64,000 nucleotides of DNA, from IMG/VR virus record IMGVR_UViG_3300045988_151707, positions 32,001 to 96,000 of that record, one strand, 5' to 3'. How positions within the stretch are numbered: the stretch's first letter is position 1; each line of letters begins with the position of its first letter. Source of the DNA: a virus. Shown one piece after another: positions 13,304 to 44,785 of this stretch. The notes beneath the pieces were generated by a model. That model ran no database searches and was not told the DNA's origin. It worked only from the letters and a program-made list of their open reading frames with translations. The position numbers and the translations under genes were made by a program.

Positions 13304-14776
13304 TTATGCTCGCATATATGCAGGTTCGCGGAGCTGTAGGGGGAGCCTCCTTTTCGGATAGTACCTTTCCGGCGGTCTGAATATGGAAGCATAGTCGTTC
13401 AGGTTTAGATATGATGTCTTGTTTGGTTTGTATTTGCTTTTCAGCACACAGACGAAGCTGCCGTTCTTGTTGCGGAAATACAGCCATTCGGAAAATGTTT
13501 CCAAAGCTTTCTTTGCTATGCGCTTTTTGATGTTGAAGGATGCTGTTCCTTTCATCAGACCGAAATAGCTGTTTATGCTTTGCATGACGTGTACGGCGTT
13601 ATCGTACGACGGCATCCGGCTGTATTCTTCTATCGCTGTATGAAGGGCGTGTACTGTGCGGTTGGATATGTAGATACGGTTCAGCTTTACTACTTTTCCG
13701 CAGAACTTTACTCCGTGTGAGGCCGGCTGTATGTAGAATTTATCGGGATGGACTTTTAGTTTCAGCCGTCCGGTCGCTTTTATGAATACTTTCCGGGCAT
13801 GGATTATTTCGGCTGCTGTTTCTGCCACCACGCATATATCATCTACAAACCGTGTGTATCTCACTCCGGCTTTTATCATTTCCGCATCAGCTTCCGCCAT
13901 GACGAGGTTTGCGAGGAGTTGGGAATAGAAGTTTCCTATCGGGAGTCCTTTATCGGGTGGAAGTCCGAAAAGGCTTTTGTTGGGCGGAACTTTATCCCAC
14001 ATTTTTATATCGGAGCGTCGCTCGCAGTCTGTGGCCGGATTGTGCTGTATCAGGGTGTGAAGCAGGGAGAGTTTTTCTTCCTTATCGGGTTTATCGTAAT
14101 ACATATCGGCGTATTTCCGAAAGATGCGGTATGCTGTTTCCTTGTCTATCGACATAAAGAAGCCTGATATATCCATTGTGGCCACAAAGGCTTTCTTTGT
14201 GTAACCGTCCGTTACATCACGAATATTCCGCTGTATCTGCTCGATGGCTGTAGATGCGGAATGCCCGATACGGTTGCCGTGGCTTACATCACCATTGGCT
14301 TCGTGGACTTTCTCGCATATCTCGCCAAGCATCGGAGCGACGTAGTGGTGCACGATACGGTCGGTGTAGTTAGCTGCAAACACTTCTCTATATACAGGAT
14401 AGTCGAGGACAAAACAGATGCTTGTCTGTGGCTGGTAGCCGTTGTCTATTCTGTTTATCAATTCATAAATACGCGACAGGTTGAAATGAAACGATGCTGC
14501 TTCGAGCGATGCGTGCTTGTTTTTGTAACAGTCACTTTCGGCAGCTATCCAGGCGGGCACTTTTTCTGATAAATCGGAGGCCGGCACCACGCTATAGGTG
14601 TTGTTCGTGTTGTTGTTGTTCAAGTTGCCATTTCCCATGTTCACATACCAGGCGTTGTTGCCATTGTTGCGGACACAGCTCCAGACGTTGCCGCCCAGGA
14701 CTTCTGCCCTGTTAATCGAAATAGCTTGCTCACCGCAAGCACAGGGACCTTTATCATTAAACAGTTCTGCCGACAT
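13304..14776 (-). CDS. DGR reverse transcriptase (the ORF as drawn includes the TR in frame; a GTG at 14560 is an alternative start)
   Basis: Motifs seen: REVFAANYTDRIVHH (motif 1/2), LPIGNFYSQLLANL (the DGR-type IGxxxSQ signature) and FVDD (YxDD box). It lies directly downstream of the TR. Confidence 0.9.
   Translation of the reverse strand: MSAELFNDKGPCACGEQAISINRAEVLGGNVWSCVRNNGNNAWYVNMGNGNLNNNNTNNTYSVVPASDLSEKVPAWIAAESDCYKNKHASLEAASFHFNLSRIYELINRIDNGYQPQTSICFVLDYPVYREVFAANYTDRIVHHYVAPMLGEICEKVHEANGDVSHGNRIGHSASTAIEQIQRNIRDVTDGYTKKAFVATMDISGFFMSIDKETAYRIFRKYADMYYDKPDKEEKLSLLHTLIQHNPATDCERRSDIKMWDKVPPNKSLFGLPPDKGLPIGNFYSQLLANLVMAEADAEMIKAGVRYTRFVDDICVVAETAAEIIHARKVFIKATGRLKLKVHPDKFYIQPASHGVKFCGKVVKLNRIYISNRTVHALHTAIEEYSRMPSYDNAVHVMQSINSYFGLMKGTASFNIKKRIAKKALETFSEWLYFRNKNGSFVCVLKSKYKPNKTSYLNLNDYASIFRPPERYYPKRRLPLQLREPAYMRA
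14575..14701 (-). repeat. DGR template repeat (TR), 127 nt
   Basis: Gapless alignment to 15219-15345. All 15 mismatches are A in the TR on the coding strand. It translates as an Asn (AAY)-rich peptide. Confidence 0.92.
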
Positions 14777-14779
14777 AGT

Positions 14780-15133
14780 TCAAGACTTTTCGGATCTGAC
14801 ATTCTTTATCCTCGCAAGCGAAGATAAAATATTATCGCACAAAACGTCTATTACAGACGCTTTCTCTTTGCTGCATCCTCCAAGAGCCACTATCAAGTAT
14901 ATCCCGAACTGCAACTCGTATGTCAGTTCTGTAGCTCTTTTATAATAGTCCATTCCACGGACCTGGCGCATAGCGTAGATGAAGAGTAATGCGCCTTGCT
15001 TCAGCATAGGATCTATATATGTTCTGCTTATGACCTTATAAGCTTTGCTGTTGATTTCTATGAGACAATTATTCAGGCGTATCACATCCTGAATAATCGG
15101 TGCGTCCAAATGTTTCCTCCCGGATCTGTTCAT
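14780..15133 (-). CDS. avd: accessory variability determinant (Avd)-like helical protein
   Basis: 117-aa helix-rich ORF in the canonical position between target gene and TR. Its stop is 3 nt from the RT-ORF ATG. The call is positional rather than motif-based. Confidence 0.55.
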   Translation of the reverse strand: MNRSGRKHLDAPIIQDVIRLNNCLIEINSKAYKVISRTYIDPMLKQGALLFIYAMRQVRGMDYYKRATELTYELQFGIYLIVALGGCSKEKASVIDVLCDNILSSLARIKNVRSEKS

Positions 15134-15183
15134 TTCTATTGTCGCGTATTAAATGTTAATATATTTTAATGCAAAAGTTAATG

Positions 15184-15202
15184 AGCCGTGCTCCGCACGG
15201 CT
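15184..15202 (-). promoter_or_regulatory. GC-rich hairpin 3' of the VR (DGR target-recognition hairpin/cruciform candidate)
   Basis: AGCCGTGC-TCC-GCACGGCT, an 8-bp stem that ends 17 nt beyond the VR 3' end. Confidence 0.55.
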
Positions 15203-15210
15203 GAGATAAA

Positions 15211-16629
15211 TCAAAAAGCGGAGGCCGGCACCACGCTACAGGTGCCGTACGCGTTGCCGTAGTACAAGGTGCCATTACCCATGTGCACATACCAGGCGTA
15301 GTTGCCACTGTAGCGGACACAGCTCCAGACGTTGCCGCCCAGGACGCCAGGTATGCCCCATTTTTCATAACTGTTAAGATAGTTTATCAATCCTGAAATT
15401 ATGCTTTTGTTTGTCCAGTATGGATATAATTCTTTCTCTCCTGCCATATACTTCCCTTCAAGTGTTTTGATGTAATACACAGCATGAGAGTCCGCCATAT
15501 TCCATTCGTAATTTGTACTGGAATTTCCCGGTCTGCTTATGTATGGGGTAATGATATACCAATAACCGTCAACGGTTATGGCTTCCGCTCCTTTTGCGCC
15601 CGGAGAAAGAAGAGGTCGTTCGGCGGAGTTTACTCCGGTGTCGTTCATGTTTACACCGTTTGTTTTCTGCTGTTCGTACAGCCATTCAGCGTATTCAGGT
15701 TTAAAATAATATGCGTTGTTTACTGAATACTTATTATTTGTATTGTACATTGCTTTCAAACCTGTGTTCTGGCCGTTTACGAAGAAAAACATATCTTCAC
15801 CTAACTGAGCCTGTACGCCTGATGAATTTAGGATTTCCACATCGGTTATTGTGCCTTCTGCTTCAGAAGATGTTATGCCGCTACAGATGGCAAACCTGTG
15901 GCGAAGCCATTCATTCTGTACATACATGGATTCAAGACGTTCGGCGTAATTATCCGCTATCATAGCATTTACATTACCGCAATTCTTTTCCATTATCCAG
16001 CGTTGCTTGGTATTACCGCTATAAAGTTCAAGCTTGTCGTCTTCCGTTACGGTTACGCTCCAGTCGGCTGCGAAGTGACTTCCTGCAGCATGGGTGCCAA
16101 GGTTCTCATCTATGGTTCCATGATAGTCTGTTCCTTCTCCTGTTCCGGTTCTCTGATCGTATTCATAAACGGAATGCTGCATTGCGTTTGATGCTTTGCT
16201 TGTAGTACCGGACGTGGCGTAATATTCTCCCTGCCACGGCCAATACAATATCGTTCTTATCCCGTTGCACTCCAAAGAGAATCCTACCGGAGGAGCAATG
16301 AGTTCGTTGTCGAAGCCGTTGGCCACGCTGCGCTCGTTCCATTCTTTTACCGTGTAATGCTTCAGGTCTGCATCTACAATCTTGATATGGTCGTTTGTAG
16401 CTACGGCTTCCGTCTTGCCTTCTTTTGTTGTGATGGCAGTGGAGCGTACCGGCAGTATCAGCATTTGCGATTCAAAGGCGTATTCATCCCCTGTCGGAAT
16501 GGCTGCTATTTTAGCCGGATATTCGGAAAGGATTTCTCCTACATTTTCTACACCCTTTGCTTCAATGGCTGCCTTTATGGCGGCTTTGCTTTCTTTTAAC
16601 TTGTTTAGTTTGTCTGCTGTCGTTCCCAT
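15211..16629 (-). CDS. DGR target (variable) protein; tail-fibre/receptor-binding candidate with a C-terminal variable domain
   Basis: 472 aa. The last ~42 codons are the VR (VLGGNVWSCVRYSGNYAWYVHMGNGTLYYGNAYGTCSVVPASAF). The N-terminus is fibre-like (KLNKLKESKAAIKAAIEAKG). The gene is translationally coupled to the upstream coiled-coil gene. Confidence 0.85.
   Translation of the reverse strand: MGTTADKLNKLKESKAAIKAAIEAKGVENVGEILSEYPAKIAAIPTGDEYAFESQMLILPVRSTAITTKEGKTEAVATNDHIKIVDADLKHYTVKEWNERSVANGFDNELIAPPVGFSLECNGIRTILYWPWQGEYYATSGTTSKASNAMQHSVYEYDQRTGTGEGTDYHGTIDENLGTHAAGSHFAADWSVTVTEDDKLELYSGNTKQRWIMEKNCGNVNAMIADNYAERLESMYVQNEWLRHRFAICSGITSSEAEGTITDVEILNSSGVQAQLGEDMFFFVNGQNTGLKAMYNTNNKYSVNNAYYFKPEYAEWLYEQQKTNGVNMNDTGVNSAERPLLSPGAKGAEAITVDGYWYIITPYISRPGNSSTNYEWNMADSHAVYYIKTLEGKYMAGEKELYPYWTNKSIISGLINYLNSYEKWGIPGVLGGNVWSCVRYSGNYAWYVHMGNGTLYYGNAYGTCSVVPASAF
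15219..15345 (-). repeat. DGR variable repeat (VR), 127 nt
   Basis: 112/127 identical to the TR. Every difference falls at a TR adenine. The conserved 3' GC-rich end CGTGGTGCCGGCCTCCG is IMH-like. Confidence 0.92.
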
Positions 16630-22891: not shown

Positions 22892-23524
22892 CTATTTATA
22901 GGGATTCTCCCGGTATTCCGGAAGAATGAACTGTATGTTCACCGCTGCATCGTGCAGCACCTTATGGGCTTGTTCCTCACTTACCTCCATTTCGTCGGTA
23001 AACTCGCAGAAGATGTTTCCTACCCAGTCGGAAGCGCTGTTCAGCCTCTTTATGGCTACGCCGCGACAGCCATTGGTTATAAACAGGGATTTGGCCATCT
23101 TGTCCTTCACTTGAGAGTCTATATCCGTATAGCAGAGAAAAAGGTTTTCGGCCAGCCCTCTGCTGAATACTGCCATTTCGCTCATAGGGAGCCGCTGCAC
23201 GTTGTCCTTCATGCCCGACACCCCCTTGCGTTTCACTTCGAAATAGATGGAAAGGAAGGCTGCGTTACCCAGCGGGTGCGGCTGTACGATGTACACCCTG
23301 TCGGCCTTTGTCTCGTAGAGCACCTTCCACAGTTCGCCGAATACCTTTGCCGTGTTCTCGCTTCGCTTGAAGCTAAGACGTTCGGTTTCCTGCTTGTACC
23401 GTTCCAACTTCATATCGTTCATCTTGTCACGATACTTCTGCGTCATTTTGTTGTACTGAGTAAAAATCAAGGTACCCACGGAAACTACAGCTGCGCTTAT
23501 GGCCGTCACCATTTCTGCGTCCAT
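22892..23524 (-). CDS. N-terminally membrane-anchored protein of unknown function
   Basis: 210-aa ORF with one N-terminal TM helix and a cytoplasmic globular part. It lies in the lysis cassette. Confidence 0.45.
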   Translation of the reverse strand: MDAEMVTAISAAVVSVGTLIFTQYNKMTQKYRDKMNDMKLERYKQETERLSFKRSENTAKVFGELWKVLYETKADRVYIVQPHPLGNAAFLSIYFEVKRKGVSGMKDNVQRLPMSEMAVFSRGLAENLFLCYTDIDSQVKDKMAKSLFITNGCRGVAIKRLNSASDWVGNIFCEFTDEMEVSEEQAHKVLHDAAVNIQFILPEYRENPYK

Positions 23525-23548
23525 TCCGTGCCTCCTTCCGATTTCCCA

Positions 23549-23947
23549 TTATTCCATTTCAGGCGTATTTTTTTCAAAAAGAGCGGCAATAGCTTTTACC
23601 ACATCGTAGAAACCGCATCCACTAAGGCCGGCAGCCAGTCCGTAAATAAGCGTTCCCCACCATTGGTATCCTTCGAGCAGAGGAGTAAGCTGAAGCGCCC
23701 ATGCCAGCACGCAAACCACCATACCTACCGCCACGCTCACACCGATTTTTGCGAGCTTGCTTCCTGAAATGGCAGGAATTACTTTCAGGATTTGCGTCAC
23801 GATAGCCGAGATAAGTGCTACGATTCCGGTAAACGTGCCTAGGTCGATTACGAATCCGGCAGTAGAAGGTTCAGAGGTTACAACGCCCTGTGCGAAAACG
23901 GTCACTGCAGAGATCAGCATTGCAAACATTAAAATCATCTTTTTCAT
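23549..23947 (-). CDS. holin-like multi-TM protein
   Basis: 132 aa with 3-4 hydrophobic helices. It is the first gene after late promoter 3 and lies upstream of the amidase. Confidence 0.5.
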   Translation of the reverse strand: MKKMILMFAMLISAVTVFAQGVVTSEPSTAGFVIDLGTFTGIVALISAIVTQILKVIPAISGSKLAKIGVSVAVGMVVCVLAWALQLTPLLEGYQWWGTLIYGLAAGLSGCGFYDVVKAIAALFEKNTPEME

Positions 23948-23990
23948 TTTGTCGTCGTTTTTAGTTAAACATTTGGTTTTTGATGCAATA

Positions 23991-24033
23991 CAAAGTTACG
24001 AAGAGCACATTGGAGAATGAAGGACAAAAAAAC
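23991..24033 (-). promoter_or_regulatory. late promoter copy 3 (TTTTTTTGTCCTTC-N-TAACTTTG)
   Basis: Invariant core and 26-nt spacing. A degenerate second core (TTTTTGTCCTCC) lies 21 nt upstream. Confidence 0.65.
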
Positions 24034-24060
24034 GACGGTTTCTCGGAGGACAAAAACAAA

Positions 24061-24086
24061 AAAGGAGACAATCGCTTGTCTCCTTT
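24061..24086. terminator. bidirectional rho-independent terminator
   Basis: AAAGGAGACA-ATCGCT-TGTCTCCTTT flanked by A- and T-runs. Confidence 0.6.
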
Positions 24087-24383
24087 CTGTGTGTGTTGAT
24101 AAAACTCTCATCGAAGAAGGGAATCCCTGTTTTCCCTATCACGCCGCTAAATTACAAAAAATATTTATATCCGAATAAAACGGATATGTTTTTTTGACAA
24201 TTGAATGCTTATTTGCACTTTAAAACAATAAAAAGGGGAATATACCTCTCTTGGAAATATCCCCCTTTATGCATCTAATAATTCATTAAGAATTATAGCT
24301 GCAAATATAGCTTTTTATTATGATTGACATCTTGTTTATGCTTAATTTTTAATATATTTATAGTGTATCTAATAATAATCATT

Positions 24384-25528
24384 ATGAATAAAATTAAGTA
24401 TGAGCTTGTAACGCATCGTGTACACGGAGGAATGCTAGCTGTTTTTGTGAAATGTTCACAGTATGGTTCTGTAATAGAACTAGATACTAATGTCAGAGTG
24501 TTTAATGACGAATGGAGCAAAGAATTCGGACTTATTTCTAAAAATCCAAATGCCGCTAATCTTAACCTGCTAATCAGAAAACTTGTGTATAACCTGGAAG
24601 AGATTGAACTAACTTATTCTGGAGAAATTACATTGTCTAAATTGCATGACATCTATTCAAAACGTGGAGCTTCTGCAGACTGGTATGTAATGTGGGAAAA
24701 ATCCATGAATGAAAGAGGGTTAAAACCTCGTACTATAGAAATACATGAAAATGTTTTGAAGACTATAAAAAAATTCAGAGATTCTTGTCCTGTCACATCA
24801 TTGACAGAGGATTTCTTCCGCGGATTCATGGGATTTTTAATTAATTCCGGACTTAAATATTCAACCGTATGTAAGGAAATGCATGTTGTTAAGGCATATT
24901 ATAATATCGCACGTAAATTGTATGGGAATAAGGTTCCATCGGATGCATTCGCTTTTTACCATGATCCAAAAGACCTGAACAATACTTATAAACTGAAGTC
25001 GTTAAGTGATGATGATATACGTAAGATTGAGAATTATGTAGCATCTGGGACGTTATCAGAAAGTAAAAAGCTAACTATCAATCAATTCTTATTCATGAGC
25101 TATTCTGGAACTAGGATAAGTGATTTTGCTTCTCTCAACGAAAAAAACTTCAAGTTGGAAGATGGTCGGATTTGGCTTGAATATAATTCCGTAAAAACAA
25201 ATACACATGTCAGAATACCTCTTTTTGCTCTGTTTGATGGAAGAGGTGAGCAAATATATAGCCAGTATCAGAATAGACTTTCAGAGTTTTTTATGTGGGG
25301 AACAATTGCAGGTTCAATTCAAGGTTGTCTTCCGCTCTTAAAGGAAGTGGCCTTAACAAGCATGTAACCGCTCACGTTGCAAGACATACTTGCGCAAGCA
25401 GATTAATTAATAGGAATGTTCCTATAACTACAATACAGCAAGTAATCGGTCATAGACAAATAAAGACTACGATGATATATGCAAAGATTGACGACAATTC
25501 GTTTGTAAGACAATTGAAAGGATTATAA
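24384..25528 (+). pseudogene. tyrosine recombinase (integrase/invertase family) split by a -1 frame change in a T6 run
   Basis: Two ORFs, 24384-25367 and 25295-25528. The second carries HVARHTCAS (HxxR) and GHRQIKTTMIY (catalytic Tyr). Adding one T to the T-run at 25287-25292 fuses them. Confidence 0.75.
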
Positions 25529-25551
25529 AAAGCCTCTTTACGAGGCTTTTT
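25527..25551 (+). terminator. rho-independent terminator after the recombinase gene
   Basis: AAAGCCTC-TTTAC-GAGGCTTT followed by TTT. Confidence 0.65.
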
Positions 25552-25555
25552 ACAA

Positions 25556-25572
25556 GTTCTGGCGGAACTGAT
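25556..25572 (+). repeat. proposed inversion crossover site L (GTTCTGGCGGAACTGAT)
   Basis: 14/17 match to the minus-strand sequence at 26052-26068. It is in the same codon phase (V-L-A-E/G-L) as the expressed fibre gene. Confidence 0.55.
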
Positions 25573-25825
25573 GGGTGGATTTATAAGGAGAAGCCCAGTT
25601 TCAGAATCTTTCGACTCCTGTATAAATCAGGGCGTTTATAATATCAATAAGACCACTTATCCATCCGCAGTAAACTATCCTCCAAGTATTGTCTATGGGC
25701 TTCTATTTGTATTCAGTTCATCGAATGGATGGGTTTCACAATTATCTCATAATTTGGAAAATAATACAATACACACAAGAATAAGAAATGAAAATGGTAT
25801 TTGGAATGAGTGGAAACAGTTATAA
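25556..25825 (+). other. promoterless alternative tail-fibre tip cassette (silent copy)
   Basis: The reading frame is open from the crossover core. It ends in a knob-like tip (GVYN...YGLL...Q...R...NGIWNEWKQL) paralogous to the expressed tip. It converges on the fibre gene and overlaps it by 6 nt. Confidence 0.55.
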
Positions 25826-26404
25826 TTCTTTCCATTCAGTCCATTCTCCATTACTTATTTTTGCCCTTTGATAAGTCGTTCCAGTAAATATCTCTACTAG
25901 TATCTGAAATGCACTTTGATCAGATTTCGCAGAAAGCAGAAAACCAAAATATCCATTTGTGTTTGTTGAGCCATTCTCTGCATAATAATATCCATCTTCA
26001 ATGTTGTTCGCGTCAACCACTTTGCGTCCACGATAGGCGAAGGGGAATTGTATTAGTCCCGCCAGGACTGATGAAAACTGTTCTTTGCCAATATATATAG
26101 GATTCCCATTAGAGTCAATTCCTCTTATAAAAGGAATATCTTCTGAAGGCTCATTCAATTTCTCTGATTTTGAAATTTCTCTAGATGCATCTCCTATACT
26201 GATTATTCCAGTTTCCATATCGCTCGGATTTGAAACTATAAAATTTTTAGGAGAATTTATTTGTAAAAATGATGACATTAATTCAGAGATTACTTTTTTC
26301 ATGGAATCTTTTGACATCTTTTGTACATCCCCATTACTCTTTACACCAAGAAAATAATCAAAATCTTCAACGGATGTAACGTCTGATAATTTTTTATCTG
26401 CCAT
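25820..26404 (-). CDS. tail fibre protein with a knob-like C-terminal tip (expressed orientation)
   Basis: 194 aa. The C-terminus GYYY...GFLL...QIL...R...NGEWTEWKEL fits the pyocin-knob/fibre-tip pattern. The crossover core lies at codons 113-118. Confidence 0.6.
   Translation of the reverse strand: MADKKLSDVTSVEDFDYFLGVKSNGDVQKMSKDSMKKVISELMSSFLQINSPKNFIVSNPSDMETGIISIGDASREISKSEKLNEPSEDIPFIRGIDSNGNPIYIGKEQFSSVLAGLIQFPFAYRGRKVVDANNIEDGYYYAENGSTNTNGYFGFLLSAKSDQSAFQILVEIFTGTTYQRAKISNGEWTEWKEL
26052..26068 (-). repeat. proposed inversion crossover site R (GTCCTGGCGGGACTAAT on the minus strand)
   Basis: Inverted partner of 25556-25572, inside the fibre gene at the constant/variable junction. 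Confidence 0.55.
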
Positions 26405-26447
26405 AATTATATGTTTTAATCGTTTGTGTTTTGTTATATAATACTCA

Positions 26448-26951
26448 TTAAACAGTTTCCTTATTATCCGGAAGAACCGGTCTGTAATAAATTACTTTTT
26501 CAGATTCATCAGGAGAAAGTGAAAGAAGCATAGGATTCTGGTCTGGCATAGTATCCTCTGATAAAGTATGTGGAGTCACTACCTCAAGAAGCACATCATC
26601 AAAATTAAACTTAAAACCAGAAGGAGCTTCTGTGCCGATTACCTCATTAAAACTTGGATATAAACGCTTTAGTTCCAATGCCTGATTGTTTGTAAGGCTA
26701 ATGTTATTAATATCTGATGATACTTTTCCCAATAAAGATACGAGCTTGTTAAGAAAATTATAATCCAGATTATCCGGATAGAACAGATTTCCTTCTTCAA
26801 TCATAGAATCTTTTTCTGATTCTGGTATTTCTTTCCACAATGCCGCTTCTTCCATGGATGAAACAATCATTGATTTTTCAAAACGTCTTTCACTAATTGG
26901 AACTTCCTCACTCTGAGTAAGAAGACATCCGTTACTTGCTTGTAGTATCAT
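26448..26951 (-). CDS. hypothetical fibre-module protein
   Basis: AT-rich ORF. Start taken at the second Met (MILQASNG). Confidence 0.45.
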   Translation of the reverse strand: MILQASNGCLLTQSEEVPISERRFEKSMIVSSMEEAALWKEIPESEKDSMIEEGNLFYPDNLDYNFLNKLVSLLGKVSSDINNISLTNNQALELKRLYPSFNEVIGTEAPSGFKFNFDDVLLEVVTPHTLSEDTMPDQNPMLLSLSPDESEKVIYYRPVLPDNKETV

Positions 26952-27219
26952 TTTTCCTTGCTTTTTCAATCATGTTGTCAATAGCATCAATAAAACGTGG
27001 GTTCCCGAACCTGGAATATTCCTTAATCAGTTCCACTTCTTTCTCATCATATTCTTCTTCACCATCTGAATTGTATATCTTACGGCACAATTCAAGCGAA
27101 GCAACTCCCCTGCCCGATGCGTAGATAGCATCGGCAAACATTTCTCTTACATCTTCCACTGCTTCCGTGACGCGTGAAAGACCGTTGAAAACGTGTAATT
27201 CCTTAAAATTCAGTTTCAT
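26932..27219 (-). CDS. hypothetical small protein
   Basis: 95-aa ORF immediately after the 1019-aa gene. Confidence 0.45.
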   Translation of the reverse strand: MKLNFKELHVFNGLSRVTEAVEDVREMFADAIYASGRGVASLELCRKIYNSDGEEEYDEKEVELIKEYSRFGNPRFIDAIDNMIEKARKNDTTSK

Positions 27220-27221
27220 TA

Positions 27222-30200
27222 TTATCCTATTTTATAACAAATTCCATTTTTAAAATAAAGGGTTTTTGAATACCCGTTTGGGGGCACATATTCTGCGGTA
27301 CCTGTAAATCCAGTAACTGAATTACCTCCTTCTGTCATTGATATTTGAGTAGGATTTATAATCATACTAGAATCTCCCATCTTTAATCTTATATCTCCGT
27401 TTGTTATCTGAGTGCTCTTGTCACCGCTGTTCATTCTTATGTCAAACGGGTATAGGTAAAGCGTTTCCCCTTCAATATTTTTCAATGATATTGCAGCTGA
27501 TTCATATCCTGAATTGTCGTAGAAAAACCAGCTAGAAAGCACATTCCCTGTACTTGAAACTAAAGCCATTTGTCTTGAATCAGGGTCTAATATAATTCTG
27601 TTTCCATCTGAATTAGTAACAACACCTCCAGTGAAAGTACCTGTAGCAGATTTCAACTCACCGGAAAAAGATCCGCTCGTAGCTACGACTTCACCTTGTA
27701 TATGTGCTTTTGTAGCATACATCTCACCAGATTCCGTCACACGGAAGGGAGCAGAAGCACGGTTCTCGTAAGTGCTTCCTGCAAAAATACGCACAAGGCT
27801 GCCTGAATTGCTTCCTGTCATACCTGCAGTAACAGTACCATCATCTTTCTGTATAAGCAGGTCGTTTCCCTGAAACAACTGTATTTTTGCATTCTTGGCT
27901 ATAATCAGTGATGTAAAAATAGAACCTACATTCGCGCCAAACCTTTTCCAAAATTCAGTGTTTGCGTATGTAATGCTGCTGCTCGATACATGCGTTTTCA
28001 AACACTGGTATGCGTCCCATCCGGTTTCAACAGCATTGTTTCTTACCAATACTACATCTATATAACGAACAGGAAGGCTTCCGTCTTTCACATCGCTGTC
28101 ATTACGGTATTCCGTGTTCAATGCCCATTCAGAATCGCGGATTACACATCCCTGAAGACCGTCTGCCCCTTTCTCGCCAAGCTGTGCAAATACAGCAGGA
28201 GTAGAGAATAACCCCCATTCTCCATCTGTTGATTTCCTTCTTTTAGAGACCCATTCGTATGGATAAGAAACAGAAATACCTGAAGGTGAGCGTGTCCATC
28301 CACTTGGTATGTAATCATCTATCTGTGCTGTTGTTGGAGTTGAAGGGGTTGAATTTATTGTTGTTCGTGTGTAAATTTCTTCAGTATAAGGTCCGTCTTC
28401 GCCTTTTTGAGCAATTATTTCGTATTCTAAAGAGTTTTGTTCTCCCGTTAGTATATATCCTCCATCTTCAAATATAAATCTATTCCCATCATTATCTGTC
28501 CAACACCATAAAGGAGGATTGTTAGTTGCATTTTTTGCAGAAAATGAAGAACCACACATTGTTACAACACCCATTTCAGGAACTTCCATGCCAGACTCCC
28601 ACCTTCCAATATAAGTTAACCCAGCTCCATCTTCACCCTTATCTACTTGTAGAAGCCAATCAGCATTTTCCTTGGAAGGTTCTGTATCTGTCCCGTCTTC
28701 TGCTACGCATAGCCACAATATACCATCATGGCTTACACGGTCATAAAATTCATATTTTGTGCCACTTTCCCATTGACCTCTGTCATTTGCCACAAGAACC
28801 GGCGTTCCATCTGGTCTTACTTGATTTATTGTACCAGTAAAATACACAGAATTAAGGTACATGGAGTAACCAGACATGTTCAGCCCGAATATGTTCAAAT
28901 TCGTCAGGTCGCCATACTGCATGGCAATATTCCCAACCGTAAATTCCCAGTCATTCTGTTTCCAGAGAAGTCGGGTATATGATCGTGTTTCGTATGCGGA
29001 GCTTTGTCTTGCTTCATCAGTAAAGTTTCCGTAGCATGAAAAACTCATCTGTGGCTGTGGATGAATAGTATATCCGGGACGAAGTGCATAACGGAATGTC
29101 TCATTATTATCTCCCGACACCTCCGTCACGCGAAAATAGGTGGTTGCAAATCCGGAAAATTTGAAGTTACCTTTGCTGTCGTCAGAATCCTCGGTAGCAT
29201 CCCTTTCATCGCCAAAATGGAAGATACCAAGTGCAATGTCATCCTTAGATACCGCACCAAACTCTCCTTTTTCCAGCTTTAGTGTACAAGTTCCAGTTGT
29301 AAGCTGATTACCTTCCGAATCCGTATCAGGTGTGCATGACAGAATAATTCCAGCACCAGGTACACGCCATTTAATCCCCAGGAAAATCTCTACACGGTTG
29401 TACCGGAGTTCAGGAACCTCCAGAAATTCCCACAAGCGAAGTCCGCGCATTTCTCCGTATCCTTTTTTATCTATCTTTGCGCCAAAACCGGTTAAACCTT
29501 CGGCAAAACCTTTCTCTCCCACCACAATTCCTGCCATCATCGTAAGCAAGAATTTTGTGGAGTCTTCACGGTCTTTATTGATAAGGTATTGTCTGAGAAG
29601 GTCTAAATATTTTCCAGTAAGCAACTTGGTTGTGGGCACGGATTCGTCGCTTTGAAGGAATTCTCCCTCATCTCCCTGGCGTGCCACATCAGAAATCTGC
29701 TTGTCGTTGATAACCAGCTTGCCGATAATGGAAAGCGTGCCTTGAACTATGTAGGAAGTGAAGCGTTTCAGCGGACGGATAAGGTCATCGGCTGTCACTT
29801 CAAACAGTTCTTTCCATCCGGCTGTATCCTGCGTTTGTCCTTCAGGAGTAGAAAGCTTACCGTAGTCCAGTGTAATTTCACGGTCGAGGGTGGCAGCTTC
29901 CAGACTGTCGGTGGCGGTAATGCTTCCGATACGTATGTAATAGAAATCTTCGCTGGGATTCTCTCCGCCGATGCTTCCGTCAGTAGCATAGTCGTTCACG
30001 GAAAACAGCACCATGGCATCGTCAGAACCACGTTCCAGACGGGCATAGATGTAGTGTGCCTCCGTGCGGTTCAGACGGGTGTTGTATCCCGTCAGCGTCC
30101 AGCTTCGGTATTCTCCGTTGGGCAGATAATCTATGCCGTAGCTTTTCTGCGGAGCCACCATGATGGTACAGCCCGGAACCACCCCCACCTGAATCAGGTT

Positions 30201-30281
30201 GGGGTTTTCCAGTGCATTTTCTATCATGGACACGCCCTGGTAAGAAATTCGGTATGCGTTACTCTGGTAATCGGTTATCAT
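27222..30281 (-). CDS. large tail fibre/spike-like structural protein (1019 aa)
   Basis: Size, beta-rich G/T/S composition and position in the fibre operon. Composition shifts from GC-richer (5' part, about 29000-30281) to AT-richer (3' part). Confidence 0.55.
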   Translation of the reverse strand: MITDYQSNAYRISYQGVSMIENALENPNLIQVGVVPGCTIMVAPQKSYGIDYLPNGEYRSWTLTGYNTRLNRTEAHYIYARLERGSDDAMVLFSVNDYATDGSIGGENPSEDFYYIRIGSITATDSLEAATLDREITLDYGKLSTPEGQTQDTAGWKELFEVTADDLIRPLKRFTSYIVQGTLSIIGKLVINDKQISDVARQGDEGEFLQSDESVPTTKLLTGKYLDLLRQYLINKDREDSTKFLLTMMAGIVVGEKGFAEGLTGFGAKIDKKGYGEMRGLRLWEFLEVPELRYNRVEIFLGIKWRVPGAGIILSCTPDTDSEGNQLTTGTCTLKLEKGEFGAVSKDDIALGIFHFGDERDATEDSDDSKGNFKFSGFATTYFRVTEVSGDNNETFRYALRPGYTIHPQPQMSFSCYGNFTDEARQSSAYETRSYTRLLWKQNDWEFTVGNIAMQYGDLTNLNIFGLNMSGYSMYLNSVYFTGTINQVRPDGTPVLVANDRGQWESGTKYEFYDRVSHDGILWLCVAEDGTDTEPSKENADWLLQVDKGEDGAGLTYIGRWESGMEVPEMGVVTMCGSSFSAKNATNNPPLWCWTDNDGNRFIFEDGGYILTGEQNSLEYEIIAQKGEDGPYTEEIYTRTTINSTPSTPTTAQIDDYIPSGWTRSPSGISVSYPYEWVSKRRKSTDGEWGLFSTPAVFAQLGEKGADGLQGCVIRDSEWALNTEYRNDSDVKDGSLPVRYIDVVLVRNNAVETGWDAYQCLKTHVSSSSITYANTEFWKRFGANVGSIFTSLIIAKNAKIQLFQGNDLLIQKDDGTVTAGMTGSNSGSLVRIFAGSTYENRASAPFRVTESGEMYATKAHIQGEVVATSGSFSGELKSATGTFTGGVVTNSDGNRIILDPDSRQMALVSSTGNVLSSWFFYDNSGYESAAISLKNIEGETLYLYPFDIRMNSGDKSTQITNGDIRLKMGDSSMIINPTQISMTEGGNSVTGFTGTAEYVPPNGYSKTLYFKNGICYKIG

Positions 30282-43895: not shown

Positions 43896-44002
43896 TTGCA
43901 CATTTGAATATTTACATTTTTGCATAAAAATATTTCTGTATTTATGGAGGAAATGAAAAAAAACGACTATCTTTGCAGTGTAATAAAACAAAAACATTTG
44001 AT

Positions 44003-44785
44003 ATGGCAATTACAATTTCTTCATTCAACTTTAAGGGTGGAGTAGGGAAGACCACTACCACCGTCAATCTGGCAAAAGCCTTACATTCTCTTGGTAAACG
44101 TGTGCTGGTAATAGATGCCGACGCACAGGGTAACGCATCTAAAATGATGGGATTCCGTCTGGCCACGGAAAAGGATGGTAAAACCCTTTACGAAGCCATG
44201 TCTGGAAATGCCAGCATCATGGAATGTGTGTTCTGTGAAAATGAAAACGAAGAAAGCTTCGACTTCATTCCTTCACGCCCGAACTTATACCAGTGCGAAC
44301 AGGAACTGGTTAGCCGTACCGGACGCGAATACATCCTTCGCATGATGCTGAACAATCTGGAAGACCATTATGATTTTATCCTGATTGACTGCCCTCCGAA
44401 CTACGGACTGGTTTCTATCAATGCAATGGTGGCTTCTGACTACCTGCTGATTCCTATCAACTGCGAAGTATTTGCCCTTGACGGAATGGGCCTGATTACC
44501 GCAAAATATGAGGAAATCAAAAAGCTGGTGAACCCGAAACTTGAAATTCTGGGTTACATCATGTCACGCTACGACAAGCGTCTGTCGCTTCACCGTCAGG
44601 CATACGAACAGATGAATCAGAATTTCCCTGGGAAGGTGTTCAATACCACCATCCGCACGAACATTCAGCTGGCCGAATCGCCTGCGCAGCGCATGAACGT
44701 GTTCGATTTTGCGCCCAACTGCACGGGAGCTGCCGACTACATGGAGCTGGCCAAAGAGATTCTATCACGATTAGATAACCGGTAA
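44003..44785 (+). CDS. parA: ParA-family partition ATPase
   Basis: Deviant Walker A FNFKGGVGKTTT. A TATCTTTG box at 43968-43975 places the start at ATG 44003. Confidence 0.85.
   Translation: MAITISSFNFKGGVGKTTTTVNLAKALHSLGKRVLVIDADAQGNASKMMGFRLATEKDGKTLYEAMSGNASIMECVFCENENEESFDFIPSRPNLYQCEQELVSRTGREYILRMMLNNLEDHYDFILIDCPPNYGLVSINAMVASDYLLIPINCEVFALDGMGLITAKYEEIKKLVNPKLEILGYIMSRYDKRLSLHRQAYEQMNQNFPGKVFNTTIRTNIQLAESPAQRMNVFDFAPNCTGAADYMELAKEILSRLDNR

What the first reader, a model, noticed from the sequence alone, without database searches (positions are those of the whole stretch)
24384..26404. Proposed shufflon-like inversion switch that swaps the tail-fibre tip in frame
**Arrangement**
- The 194-aa fibre gene (25820-26404, minus strand) converges on a promoterless plus-strand ORF (25556-25825).
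- That ORF encodes a second knob-type tip ending in the same ...NG.W.EWK.L motif.

**Crossover cores**
- The constant/variable junction of the expressed gene carries GTCCTGGCGGGACTAAT (26068->26052).
- The start of the silent cassette carries GTTCTGGCGGAACTGAT (25556-25572).
- These form a 14/17 inverted repeat. Both are in the same codon phase: S-V-L-A-G-L against Q-V-L-A-E-L.

**Predicted outcome**
- Inversion of about 513 bp would replace the C-terminal 82 aa with an alternative 89 aa without breaking the frame.
- A tyrosine recombinase gene with its own terminator ends 5 nt before the left core. This mirrors Gin/Cin segments of Mu and P1, but with an Rci-type (tyrosine) enzyme.
Basis: partly seen in the sequence, partly recalled or inferred. 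Interest (0 to 1): 0.85.

Follow-up and report, generated by a model that had tools for sequence, protein, structure and literature searches.

The report
Phage tail-fibre tip inversion switch (shufflon)
A gut (Bacteroidales-type) phage carries a short DNA segment that can flip between two conserved 7-bp sites to swap the receptor-binding tip of a small tail-fibre protein; this is real and well supported by relatives in the opposite orientation, but it is a kind of switch already described in other phages.

Summary
The core GTYCTGGCGGRACTRAT occurs exactly twice in 64 kb, in inverted orientation (0.03 expected). Both copies lie in the same codon phase, one in the 194-aa gene and one at the head of a start-less, terminator-shielded cassette.

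Relatives settle the interpretation.
- In about 30 related metagenomic phage contigs, similarity to the window stops and resumes exactly at the two cores.
- Each of 64 exact core copies is followed in phase by an open 77-120 aa cassette. There are at least 15 cassette types and up to six per locus.
- Contig L073 is the mirror image of the window: collinear flanks, the 531-nt segment inverted at 95% identity, and an intact 381-aa tyrosine recombinase.
- The predicted 201-aa post-inversion protein exists in nature at 97% identity.
- The mostly silent cassette B has dN/dS 0.07.
- Both tips model as pyocin/Mu-type fibre knobs.

Caveats:
- The window's own recombinase is frameshifted (T6 instead of T7), so this copy may be locked.
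- The enzyme is not an Rci orthologue.
- Tyrosine-recombinase tail-fibre shufflons are already published (Rin 2018; BV01-like phages 2026).

Verdict: a real shufflon and a new member of a known kind. Interest is moderate.

The parts
24384..25528 (+). Tyrosine recombinase (putative shufflon invertase). It is a pseudogene in this window: a -1 frameshift splits it into 24384-25367 and 25295-25528.
   Evidence: Pfam Phage_int_SAM_5 (8.6e-9) and Phage_integrase (3.9e-16 for the C-terminal piece), with a weak Arm-DNA-bind_5 match. Intact 381-aa orthologues are present in L001, L002, L004, L005, L009, L016, L017, L025 and L073. It is the only tyrosine recombinase in the 64 kb.
25287..25292 (+). Homopolymer T6 tract that causes the frameshift. 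It is T7 in intact relatives and T8 in L015.
   Evidence: Alignment of 11 recombinase genes. L025, L028, L073, L066-68 and L071 all have T7.
25527..25551 (.). Hairpin AAAAAGCCTC-TTTAC-GAGGCTTTTT. It looks like a bidirectional terminator between the recombinase gene and the shufflon, and it shields the silent cassette from read-through.
   Evidence: RNA fold gives -17.7 kcal/mol, z -5.5, with 0 of 200 shuffles as stable. It is conserved next to the fixed core in all lineage-1 relatives.
25556..25572 (+). Left ('fixed-end') crossover site. The 7-bp core CTGGCGG lies at 25559-25565.
25556..25825 (+). Silent cassette B. It encodes an 89-aa alternative C-terminus (VLAELMGGFIRRS...NEWKQL*) and has no start codon of its own.
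   Evidence: It is expressed as a fusion in relatives (P0079, P0010, P0008). dN/dS is 0.07 across 9 copies. It models as a knob (pLDDT 73-90) that hits R1/R2 pyocin fibres at E 3e-3.
25820..26068 (-). Expressed cassette A. It encodes the 82-aa C-terminus VLAGLIQFPFAYRG...TEWKEL*.
   Evidence: The knob (residues 122-194) has pLDDT 85-90 and hits R2 pyocin fibre 6cl6_A (rmsd 2.4 over 80 columns), the phi812 baseplate and the Mu tail fibre.
26052..26068 (-). Right crossover site at the constant/variable junction of the expressed gene. The core reads CCGCCAG on the + strand at 26059-26065.
25559..26065 (.). Invertible segment of about 500 bp. It holds two convergent cassettes between the two 7-bp cores.
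   Evidence: It is found inverted between collinear flanks in L073 (95.1% identity) and L025 (87%).
26069..26404 (-). Constant N-terminal part (residues 1-112) of the 194-aa fibre-tip protein.
   Evidence: It is 96-97% conserved in relatives that carry at least 15 different C-termini.
26448..30281 (-). Upstream genes of the same minus-strand tail module: 173/167 aa, 95 aa and a 1019-aa tail fibre/host-specificity protein.
   Evidence: The 1019-aa protein is 43% identical over 69% of its length to crAss-like 'tail fiber protein; host specificity' and 54% identical to LoVEphage tail protein. It has PHROG tail hits. The gene order is the same in L025, L026 and L073.

Best explanation
This is a minimal shufflon with one segment and two cassettes.

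How it works:
- The last gene of the phage's tail-fibre module encodes a 112-aa constant N-terminal part, which presumably anchors it to the fibre or baseplate. This is fused to an exchangeable knob of about 80-90 aa of the pyocin/Mu fibre-tip fold, the presumed receptor-binding domain.
- A second knob cassette lies tail-to-tail behind it. It is silent because it has no promoter and no start codon and sits behind a bidirectional hairpin terminator.
- Each cassette begins with the same asymmetric site. This site has an invariant 7-bp CTGGCGG, a conserved cassette-side arm (RACTNATNGG), and a 4-bp inverted arm (AGTY) on the outer side.
- The adjacent tyrosine recombinase is inferred to pair the two inverted sites and exchange strands within or next to CTGGCGG. 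That flips about 500 bp, so the constant part is fused in frame to the other knob (194-aa A form or 201-aa B form).
- The likely effect is a change in which Bacteroidales surface structure the virion binds.

Relatives carry one to three such segments (two to six cassettes), drawn from a pool of at least 15 cassette types.

What is shown:
- the site anatomy;
- in-phase open cassettes;
- both orientations in near-identical genomes;
- purifying selection on silent cassettes;
- the knob fold;
- recombinase adjacency in three lineages.

What is inferred:
- that the adjacent enzyme is the invertase;
- the position of strand exchange;
- receptor switching.

In this window the invertase carries a -1 frameshift. 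This copy is therefore probably locked in the A state unless the frameshift is a sequencing error, reverts by slippage, or is complemented in trans.
For: Chance:
- The core pair is non-random: 2 hits against 0.03 expected.

Breakpoints:
- In L001-L019, flanks are 92-98% identical to the window.
- Similarity ends exactly at window position 26052 and resumes at 25575 (25572 in L016), with 528-1814 nt of other content between.

Cassettes:
- Every core copy in 29 loci is followed in phase by an open cassette.
- Of 40 silent copies, 36 are open for 77-120 codons, in DNA of about 34% GC.
- CTGGCGG is exact in 64 of 67 sites, including three synonymous codon positions, and in 14 or more unrelated cassette contexts.

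Precise inversions between collinear flanks:
- Window against L073: 531 nt inverted at 95.1%, with flanks at 95.0% and 97.1%, silent A intact and the invertase intact.
- Window against L025.
- L004 against L009: 678 nt inverted at 98.8%.
- L001 against L010: the E/F segment is inverted and moved.

Predicted product:
- The natural protein P0010 is 97% identical to the simulated post-inversion product.

Assembly behaviour:
- At least 10 contigs break within about 100 nt after the core.
- Two are fold-back contigs with the constant flank on both sides (L003, L022).

Selection:
- dN/dS is 0.07 for B, 0.12 for A and 0.30 for D.

Structure:
- Both tips model as knobs matching R1/R2 pyocin fibres, phi812 baseplate proteins and the Mu tail fibre.

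Recombinase:
- A tyrosine recombinase abuts the last core in lineage 1, in lineage 2 (L020) and in the published-motif TGGGAGAACT arrays.
Against: - No read-level data were available, so inversion within a single clonal population is not demonstrated for this lineage. Orientation differences are between contigs, and several come from one large co-assembly (IMG 3300045988).
- The window's own recombinase is frameshifted.
- The purine after the core is not strictly linked to the cassette. B carries A in the window but G in L073. The exact crossover point is therefore uncertain.
- Re-pairing of cassettes (A with B in the window, A with D in L023) cannot arise by inversion at the cores alone and needs additional recombination.
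- The N-terminal 120 residues model poorly (pLDDT below 50). The protein's position in the virion is therefore inferred from gene neighbourhood only.
Confidence: 0.85

Rival explanations
1. There is no programmed inversion. On this reading the conserved 'core' is only the DNA image of a conserved linker peptide (S-V-L-A-G/E-L). The different tips in relatives would then arise by ordinary modular exchange (homologous or illegitimate recombination) between phages, and the plus-strand ORF would be a remnant.
For: Tail-fibre genes are notoriously mosaic. Cassettes are shared between two phage lineages with unrelated constant parts. Cassette partners differ between loci (A/B against A/D). These patterns need recombination other than core-to-core inversion.
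Against: - The core is invariant at synonymous positions in 64 of 67 copies. It is a GC-rich 7-mer in 34% GC DNA.
- It is also kept at the fixed end and at internal head-to-head junctions, where it is not part of an expressed protein.
- Silent cassettes are always inverted relative to their neighbour and always in phase. They are under purifying selection, with dN/dS 0.07 for B.
- Identical segments occur in both orientations with breakpoints exactly at the cores.
- A recombinase gene always abuts the array.
Confidence: 0.04
2. The inversion is real but is catalysed in trans by another enzyme, such as a host Bacteroidales invertase or a co-resident phage's invertase. On this reading the adjacent tyrosine recombinase is the phage's integrase or plasmid-resolution enzyme.
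For: - The enzyme has an integrase-like architecture: SAM_5 plus catalytic domain, with a weak arm-binding-domain hit.
- Its best database matches are annotated 'integrase'.
- The same core and the same cassettes are served in lineage 2 by an enzyme only 29% identical.
- Bacteroides has global invertases (established knowledge; discussed in PMC6109161).
- Genomes with a frameshifted enzyme (window, L008, L010, L015) still keep intact cassettes.
Against: - The gene sits immediately next to the last core in three lineages, despite 29% identity and opposite gene orientation.
- The phage has a ParA-like partition gene.
- The 194-aa fibre-tip protein has no relative in 185,579 GTDB genomes, so there is no sign of chromosomal integration.
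- No other tyrosine recombinase lies in the 64 kb.
- The published BV01-like and Rin shufflons have the same adjacency (PMC13596623, PMC6109161).
Confidence: 0.07
3. In this particular genome the switch is a dead relic. The frameshift is real and not complemented, so the phage is fixed on tip A and cassette B is on its way to decay.
For: - The tract is T6 instead of T7, which splits the catalytic residues between two frames.
- Independent frameshifts occur in L008/L010 (G3 to G2) and L015 (T8). This suggests that loss of the invertase recurs.
- Damaged silent cassettes exist elsewhere: A in L025 is reduced to 48 aa and F in L002 to 28 aa.
Against: - Cassette B in the window is fully open and 97% identical at protein level to the expressed B of P0010, so any inactivation is recent.
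- A single-base change in a homopolymer may be an assembly error or may revert by slippage.
- The closest same-state relative, L028, has T7.
Confidence: 0.4

Closest known systems
Tail-fibre shufflon of BV01-like Phocaeicola vulgatus phages (Res Sq preprint, Sept 2026, PMC13596623)
   Same: - It is a multi-cassette array overlapping the distal end of a tail-fibre gene, flanked by a recombinase, with short directional motifs separating the cassettes.
- The motifs are alike: TGGGAGAACT against TGGCGGAACT here (8 of 10), both read in phase as (L/V)-(A/G)-E-L.
- IMG/VR arrays with the published motif share this locus's architecture: head-to-head sites, two convergent cassettes per segment, and cassettes that begin ..ELIG.AT.EK.GL.
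- Read-level activity was shown for that system.
   Different: - The core sequence differs.
- The recombinase next to TGGGAGAACT arrays is only 29-30% identical to the window-lineage enzyme. It is 78-82% identical to the lineage-2 enzyme.
- Here the recombinase gene converges on the array instead of reading away from it.
- The phage backbone is different: contigs of roughly 100 kb, a ParA-like gene, a DGR, and no nucleotide match to GenBank phages.
- The carrier is a short 194-aa protein.
- The window has only one segment.
- BV01 itself could not be retrieved for a direct comparison.
Rin shufflon of Bifidobacterium prophages (Mavrich et al. 2018, PMC6109161)
   Same: It is phage-encoded. A tyrosine-family invertase sits next to an array of alternative receptor-binding-protein C-termini. 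These are separated by a short asymmetric repeat (11-bp rix) and fused to a constant N-terminal gene.
   Different: The site is unrelated (TTCCCTAACCC). Its RBP fold is TP901-1-like rather than a pyocin knob. Rin lacks an N-terminal arm-type domain, whereas this enzyme has about 100 extra N-terminal residues with a weak Arm-DNA-bind_5 match. The host phylum is different.
R64/IncI plasmid shufflon (Rci recombinase, sfx sites, pilV tips)
   Same: - It works the same way: a tyrosine recombinase gene beside the array, and convergent cassette pairs per invertible segment.
- The sites are asymmetric, with a 7-bp core and only one conserved arm. The sfx anatomy is from established knowledge; the anatomy of this locus's own sites is shown.
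- In-frame swapping of the C-terminus of an adhesin takes place.
   Different: - The enzyme is not an Rci orthologue. tblastn against 72,556 plasmids gave 495 weak hits with no IncI-type Rci among those listed or in the organism tally. NCBIfam gives only generic Xer/integron/Fim-type similarities.
- The target is a phage fibre knob, not a type IV pilus adhesin.
Gin/Cin/Pin/Min tail-fibre inversion systems of Mu, P1, e14 and p15B
   Same: The biological logic is the same: inversion swaps the C-terminal receptor-binding part of a tail fibre. The knob model even matches the Mu tail-fibre structure 8ju3.
   Different: Those systems use serine invertases with an enhancer and Fis (established knowledge) and 26-bp gix-type sites. 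Here the enzyme is a tyrosine recombinase. No serine recombinase was seen among the ORFs scanned next to the locus.

Membership tests
Shufflon (site-specific multiple-inversion system, functional class) | Invertible segment(s) bounded by short specific repeats in inverted orientation | tested here: met
   Two cores sit in inverted orientation, against 0.03 expected by chance. Relatives have 2-6 cores that always bound cassettes.
Shufflon (site-specific multiple-inversion system, functional class) | Alternative C-terminal coding cassettes that join in frame to one constant N-terminal coding region | tested here: met
   All cassettes are in phase with the core. The simulated fusion is 201 aa and matches natural P0010 at 97%.
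Shufflon (site-specific multiple-inversion system, functional class) | Both orientations / permutations actually occur | tested here: met
   Between near-identical genomes: window against L073 and L025, L004 against L009, L001 against L010. Occurrence within one clonal population could not be tested, because no reads were available.
Shufflon (site-specific multiple-inversion system, functional class) | Dedicated site-specific recombinase encoded next to the array | tested here: met
   A tyrosine recombinase abuts the fixed core. It is frameshifted in the window itself. Its catalytic role is inferred, not shown.
Shufflon (site-specific multiple-inversion system, functional class) | More than one invertible segment | tested here: not met
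   The window has a single segment (A/B). Relatives have up to three (L001, L067). The window is therefore a minimal, Gin-like two-state version of a shufflon family.
Rci/sfx shufflon of IncI plasmids | Recombinase orthologous to Rci | tested here: not met
   No Rci-type hit appeared among 495 plasmid matches at E<=1e-3. NCBIfam gave only generic tyrosine-recombinase models, all far below their cut-offs. The test is indirect, because no Rci sequence was available for a pairwise comparison.
Rci/sfx shufflon of IncI plasmids | Asymmetric site: 7-bp core plus one conserved arm, other arm variable | tested here: met
   CTGGCGG plus RACTNATNGG is conserved. The opposite side is variable except for AGTY at the two outer sites. 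The sequence itself is unrelated to sfx (from memory, not tested).
BV01-like Phocaeicola phage tail-fibre shufflon (PMC13596623) | 10-bp directional motif TGGGAGAACT between cassettes | tested here: not met
   The window and its relatives use TGGCGGRACT, an 8/10 match.
BV01-like Phocaeicola phage tail-fibre shufflon (PMC13596623) | Same recombinase family next to the array | tested here: inconclusive
   The window-lineage enzyme is homologous over its full length but only 29-30% identical to the enzyme next to TGGGAGAACT arrays. Lineage 2, which shares the window's core and cassettes, is 78-82% identical.
BV01-like Phocaeicola phage tail-fibre shufflon (PMC13596623) | BV01-like (Salyersviridae) phage backbone | not tested
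   No BV01 record was retrieved. The window has no nucleotide match to any GenBank phage.
Gin/Cin/Min serine-invertase fibre switches | Serine recombinase (resolvase/invertase family) | tested here: not met
   The adjacent enzyme is a tyrosine recombinase (Pfam PF00589).
Rin shufflon (Bifidobacterium prophages) | 11-bp rix site TTCCCTAACCC and an arm-less XerD-like invertase | tested here: not met
   The core is different. The enzyme has an added N-terminal region with a sub-threshold Arm-DNA-bind_5 match at E 0.0028. The Rin features are taken from PMC6109161.
Pyocin-knob type tail-fibre tip | C-terminal beta-sandwich knob fold as in R1/R2 pyocin fibres | tested here: met
   Foldseek gave 6cl6_A, 6cl5_A and 6ct8 at probability 1.0, rmsd 2.4-3.0 over 80-91 columns, and E 3e-3 to 0.25. 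The lineage-2 homologue P0040 is named 'pyocin knob domain-containing protein' by NCBI. The E-values are weak and no Pfam or NCBIfam model hits.

The most novel reading that the evidence does not exclude
The shared core may work as a portable docking site that lets unrelated Bacteroidales phages trade receptor-binding tips.

The supporting observations are these.
- The window lineage (contigs of roughly 100 kb with a ParA-like gene) and a Phocaeicola prophage lineage have unrelated constant regions.
- Their invertases are only 29% identical and are oriented differently.
- Yet both carry the same CTGGCGGRACT core and cassettes that are 88-96% identical at nucleotide level.
- The homology begins and ends at the cores.

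If divergent invertases recognise one core, then intermolecular site-specific recombination during co-infection would move cassettes between phage families. That would make a community-level tip pool rather than a private switch.

A second-tier possibility is that the T7 tract in the invertase (T6, T7 and T8 observed) acts as an on/off slippage switch for shuffling itself.
Probability: 0.2. Interest if true: 0.7.

Novelty: new member of a known kind. Interest (0 to 1): 0.45.

Why it matters
Gut Bacteroidales vary their capsules and surface proteins by DNA inversion. A phage that varies its own receptor-binding tip in the same way is the matching counter-move.

This locus adds an uncultured phage lineage (contigs of roughly 100 kb) to the short list of phages with tyrosine-recombinase tail-fibre shufflons.

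It also supplies practical material:
- a well-defined minimal site, AGTY-CTGGCGG-RACT;
- an intact 381-aa enzyme in relatives;
- a library of at least 15 natural knob cassettes.

These could be used for host-range engineering or as an orthogonal inversion tool.

The same phage also carries a DGR, so it has two independent ways to diversify (putative) receptor-binding proteins.

The principle itself has already been published, so the finding is confirmatory rather than surprising.

Tried and rejected
- Nucleotide searches of GenBank phages found nothing. This covers megablast and blastn of 23500-27300 and 24300-27300, and megablast of 1-25000.
- tblastn of the 194-aa protein against GenBank phages found nothing.
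- A scan of 185,579 GTDB genomes for the fibre protein found no relative. The host is therefore inferred only from lineage-2 homologues in Phocaeicola and from crAss/LoVEphage-like tail-fibre homology.
- Pfam and NCBIfam have no model for the fibre protein or for its neighbours of 95 and 173 aa.
- My recalled accession for phage BV01 (MT074136) was wrong; it is crAss-like phage DAC15. BV01 did not appear in the recombinase tblastn list. The comparison with the published BV01-like system was therefore made through its published 10-bp motif in IMG/VR.
- R64 (AP005147) is not in the plasmid collection, so Rci relatedness was tested only indirectly.
- The consensus terminator scan missed the 25527-25551 hairpin. 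Direct folding showed it.
- I considered a chance inverted repeat and rejected it.
- I considered the plus-strand ORF as a spurious antisense ORF and rejected it, because it has dN/dS 0.07 and is expressed as a fusion in relatives.
- I considered DGR involvement in this locus and rejected it. The DGR repeats lie at 14571-15345 and target another gene.
Full report
**1. The observation**

The sequence is as described.
- A 194-aa ORF runs on the minus strand at 25820-26404.
- A plus-strand frame is open from 25556 to a stop at 25823-25825. It has no start codon at its head.
- The two frames meet tail-to-tail in the palindrome TTATAA.
- The cores GTTCTGGCGGAACTGAT (25556-25572) and GTCCTGGCGGGACTAAT (26068->26052) form the best inverted repeat in the region.
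- The degenerate pattern occurs exactly twice in 64 kb, against 0.03 expected by chance.
- Upstream lies a tyrosine recombinase gene (24384-25528; Pfam Phage_integrase and SAM_5). A -1 frameshift interrupts it. A strong hairpin follows at 25527-25551 (dG -17.7, z -5.5) and ends a few bases before the left core.
- The locus sits in a low-GC island (33-35% against about 48% around it).
- An in-silico inversion yields an uninterrupted 201-aa protein.

**2. What relatives show**

*Breakpoints.* A scan of IMG/VR with the 194-aa protein returned 24 loci. In the 19 loci of the window's own lineage the flanks are 92-98% identical. Similarity stops exactly at window position 26052 and resumes at 25575 (25572 in L016), the inner edges of the two cores. 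Between these points lie 528-1814 nt of different sequence.

*Cores and cassettes.*
- The core occurs 2-6 times per locus.
- Every copy is followed, in the same codon phase, by an open cassette of 77-120 codons that ends in a stop. At least 15 cassette types exist.
- Cassettes are arranged as convergent pairs, one invertible segment per pair. Internal sites sit head-to-head, 12 nt apart.

*Orientation states in near-identical genomes.*
- Contig L073 is the mirror image of the window. Its flanks are collinear at 95.0% and 97.1%, and the segment 26077..25547 is inverted at 95.1%. Tip B is expressed, tip A is silent but intact, and the recombinase is an intact 381 aa.
- L025 is a second such case.
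- L004 and L009 differ by a precise 678-nt inversion (98.8% identity) between flanks that are 97.6% and 99.2% identical.
- L001 and L010 differ by inversion plus relocation of a segment.

*Predicted product.* The natural protein P0010 is 97% identical over all 201 residues to the product predicted for the window after inversion.

*Assembly behaviour.* At least ten contigs terminate within about 100 nt after the core. Two are fold-backs with the constant region on both sides. This is the typical behaviour of assemblers at invertible DNA.

*Selection.* Cassette B is silent in 7 of its 9 sampled copies yet has dN/dS 0.07. It is therefore a working coding sequence.

**3. Site anatomy and mechanism**

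- Across 67 genuine sites, CTGGCGG is exact in 64. The cassette-side arm RACTNATNGG is conserved.
- The other side is variable, except for AGTY at the two outer sites. This gives AGTY|CTGGCGG|RACT: 4-bp inverted arms around an asymmetric 7-bp spacer.
- The three bases left of the spacer always stay with their flank. The purine to its right mostly, but not always, travels with the cassette. This places strand exchange in or right next to the 7-bp spacer, as expected for a tyrosine recombinase. This placement is an inference.
- The 7-mer is GC-rich in 34% GC DNA and is invariant at three synonymous positions. That argues for a constraint at the DNA level rather than the protein level.

**4. What the protein is**

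- The constant 112 residues model poorly.
- The variable part models as a beta-sandwich knob, with pLDDT 85-90 for A and 73-90 for B.
- The best structural matches are R1/R2 pyocin fibre knobs, phi812 baseplate proteins and the Mu tail fibre.
- All knob cassettes share invariant D, G, Q, R and W..W positions.
- Some cassettes in relatives (types L, M and N, 108-113 aa) lack the W..W ending and may have another fold.
- The gene is the last in a minus-strand module. That module contains a 1019-aa protein homologous to crAss-like 'tail fiber protein; host specificity' and to LoVEphage tail proteins. Lysis genes follow on the far side of the plus-strand recombinase gene.
- 'Tail-fibre tip / receptor-binding protein' is therefore well supported by fold and neighbourhood, but not shown directly.

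**5. The recombinase**

- Intact orthologues are 381 aa and have all the catalytic motifs.
- The window has T6 where they have T7 (25287-25292). L015 has T8, and L008 and L010 have an independent G3-to-G2 frameshift.
- All other copies examined have T7.
- It is the only tyrosine recombinase in the window.
- It is not an Rci orthologue. Its nearest annotated relatives are Bacteroides 'integrases' at about 30% identity.

**6. Relation to published systems**

- A 2018 paper described the Rin shufflon of Bifidobacterium prophages as the first phage-encoded tyrosine invertase acting on RBP tips (PMC6109161).
- A September 2026 preprint describes an active multi-cassette tail-fibre shufflon in BV01-like Phocaeicola phages, with the motif TGGGAGAACT (PMC13596623).
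- I searched IMG/VR for head-to-head pairs of that motif and found 35 loci with up to ten cassettes and the same architecture.
- Their adjacent recombinase is 78-82% identical to that of 'lineage 2'. Lineage 2 is a Phocaeicola-associated set of loci (L020-L024) that uses the window's core and shares its cassettes A, B, D, E, F, I and K.
- That recombinase is only 29-30% identical to the window-lineage enzyme.
- The window therefore belongs to the same broad Bacteroidales shufflon family as the published one. It differs in core sequence, has a deeply divergent enzyme in the opposite gene orientation, and sits on a different phage backbone.

**7. Verdict**

- The kind of system is already known, so this is a new member of a known kind.
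- In this particular genome the switch may be locked by the frameshift.
- The most novel reading left open is that the shared core lets unrelated phages exchange tips by site-specific recombination. A second possibility is that the homopolymer in the invertase is itself a switch.

Noticed in passing
window 13304-16629: There is a diversity-generating retroelement here. The reverse transcriptase ORF lies at 13304-14776 (-) (phrog_1423, E 4e-51). The template repeat is at 14571-14701 and the variable repeat at 15215-15345, at the 3' end of the 472-aa ORF 15211-16629. All mismatches within the 131-nt repeat are A-to-N. The phage therefore has two independent diversification systems, a DGR and a shufflon.
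   Followed up: partly
window 25287-25292; L015, L008, L010: The invertase gene has a T7 tract that reads T6 in the window and T8 in L015, that is, both -1 and +1 in independent assemblies. L008 and L010 share a G3-to-G2 frameshift. This could be recurrent inactivation, assembly error or slippage-based on/off control.
   Followed up: partly
L020-L024 against window 25559-26086: A second phage lineage has an unrelated constant region. Its protein P0040 is named 'pyocin knob domain-containing protein [Phocaeicola sp.]', and its homologues occur on contigs up to 508 kb. Its invertase is only 29% identical to the window-lineage enzyme. It nevertheless carries the same core and cassettes at 88-96% nucleotide identity, with homology starting about 18 nt before the core.
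   Followed up: partly
L031-L065 (e.g. L055 7210-11203): IMG/VR holds 35 loci with head-to-head TGGGAGAACT pairs, the published BV01-like motif. They carry up to ten cassettes, several of 120-150 aa, which is much larger than the three-cassette system described in the preprint.
   Followed up: partly
window 43973-44785, and the whole window: The window has a ParA-like partition protein (phrog_164, E 6e-68) and no integrase other than the shufflon enzyme. The fibre protein has no relative in GTDB genomes, and related contigs are 95-123 kb. Together these suggest an extrachromosomal (phage-plasmid-like) or virulent lifestyle.
   Followed up: no
window 25537-25541 and the equivalent position in relatives: The loop of the terminator hairpin is reverse-complemented between relatives: GCCTC-TTTAC-GAGGC against GCCTC-GTAAA-GAGGC. 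This is a small hairpin-loop flip (flank sequences).
   Followed up: no
internal junctions in L001, L005, L010, L015, L020: The 12-nt spacer between head-to-head internal cores occurs in both orientations (GCAGATTTAGCA and TGCTAAATCTGC). This is expected if the sites on either side recombine.
   Followed up: no
window 24000-27000: The recombinase, the shufflon and the small upstream genes form a 33-35% GC island in a region of about 48% GC. This suggests the module was acquired horizontally.
   Followed up: no
L010 4829(-), L017 6340(+), L005 7580(-): Cassette types L, M and N (108-113 aa) lack the conserved W..W knob ending and may encode a different tip fold.
   Followed up: no
L023 against the window and L020: Tail-to-tail cassette partners are not fixed: A pairs with B in the window and with D in L023, and D pairs with G, L or M elsewhere. 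Inversion at the cores cannot produce this, so another recombination route must act between cassette 3' ends.
   Followed up: no
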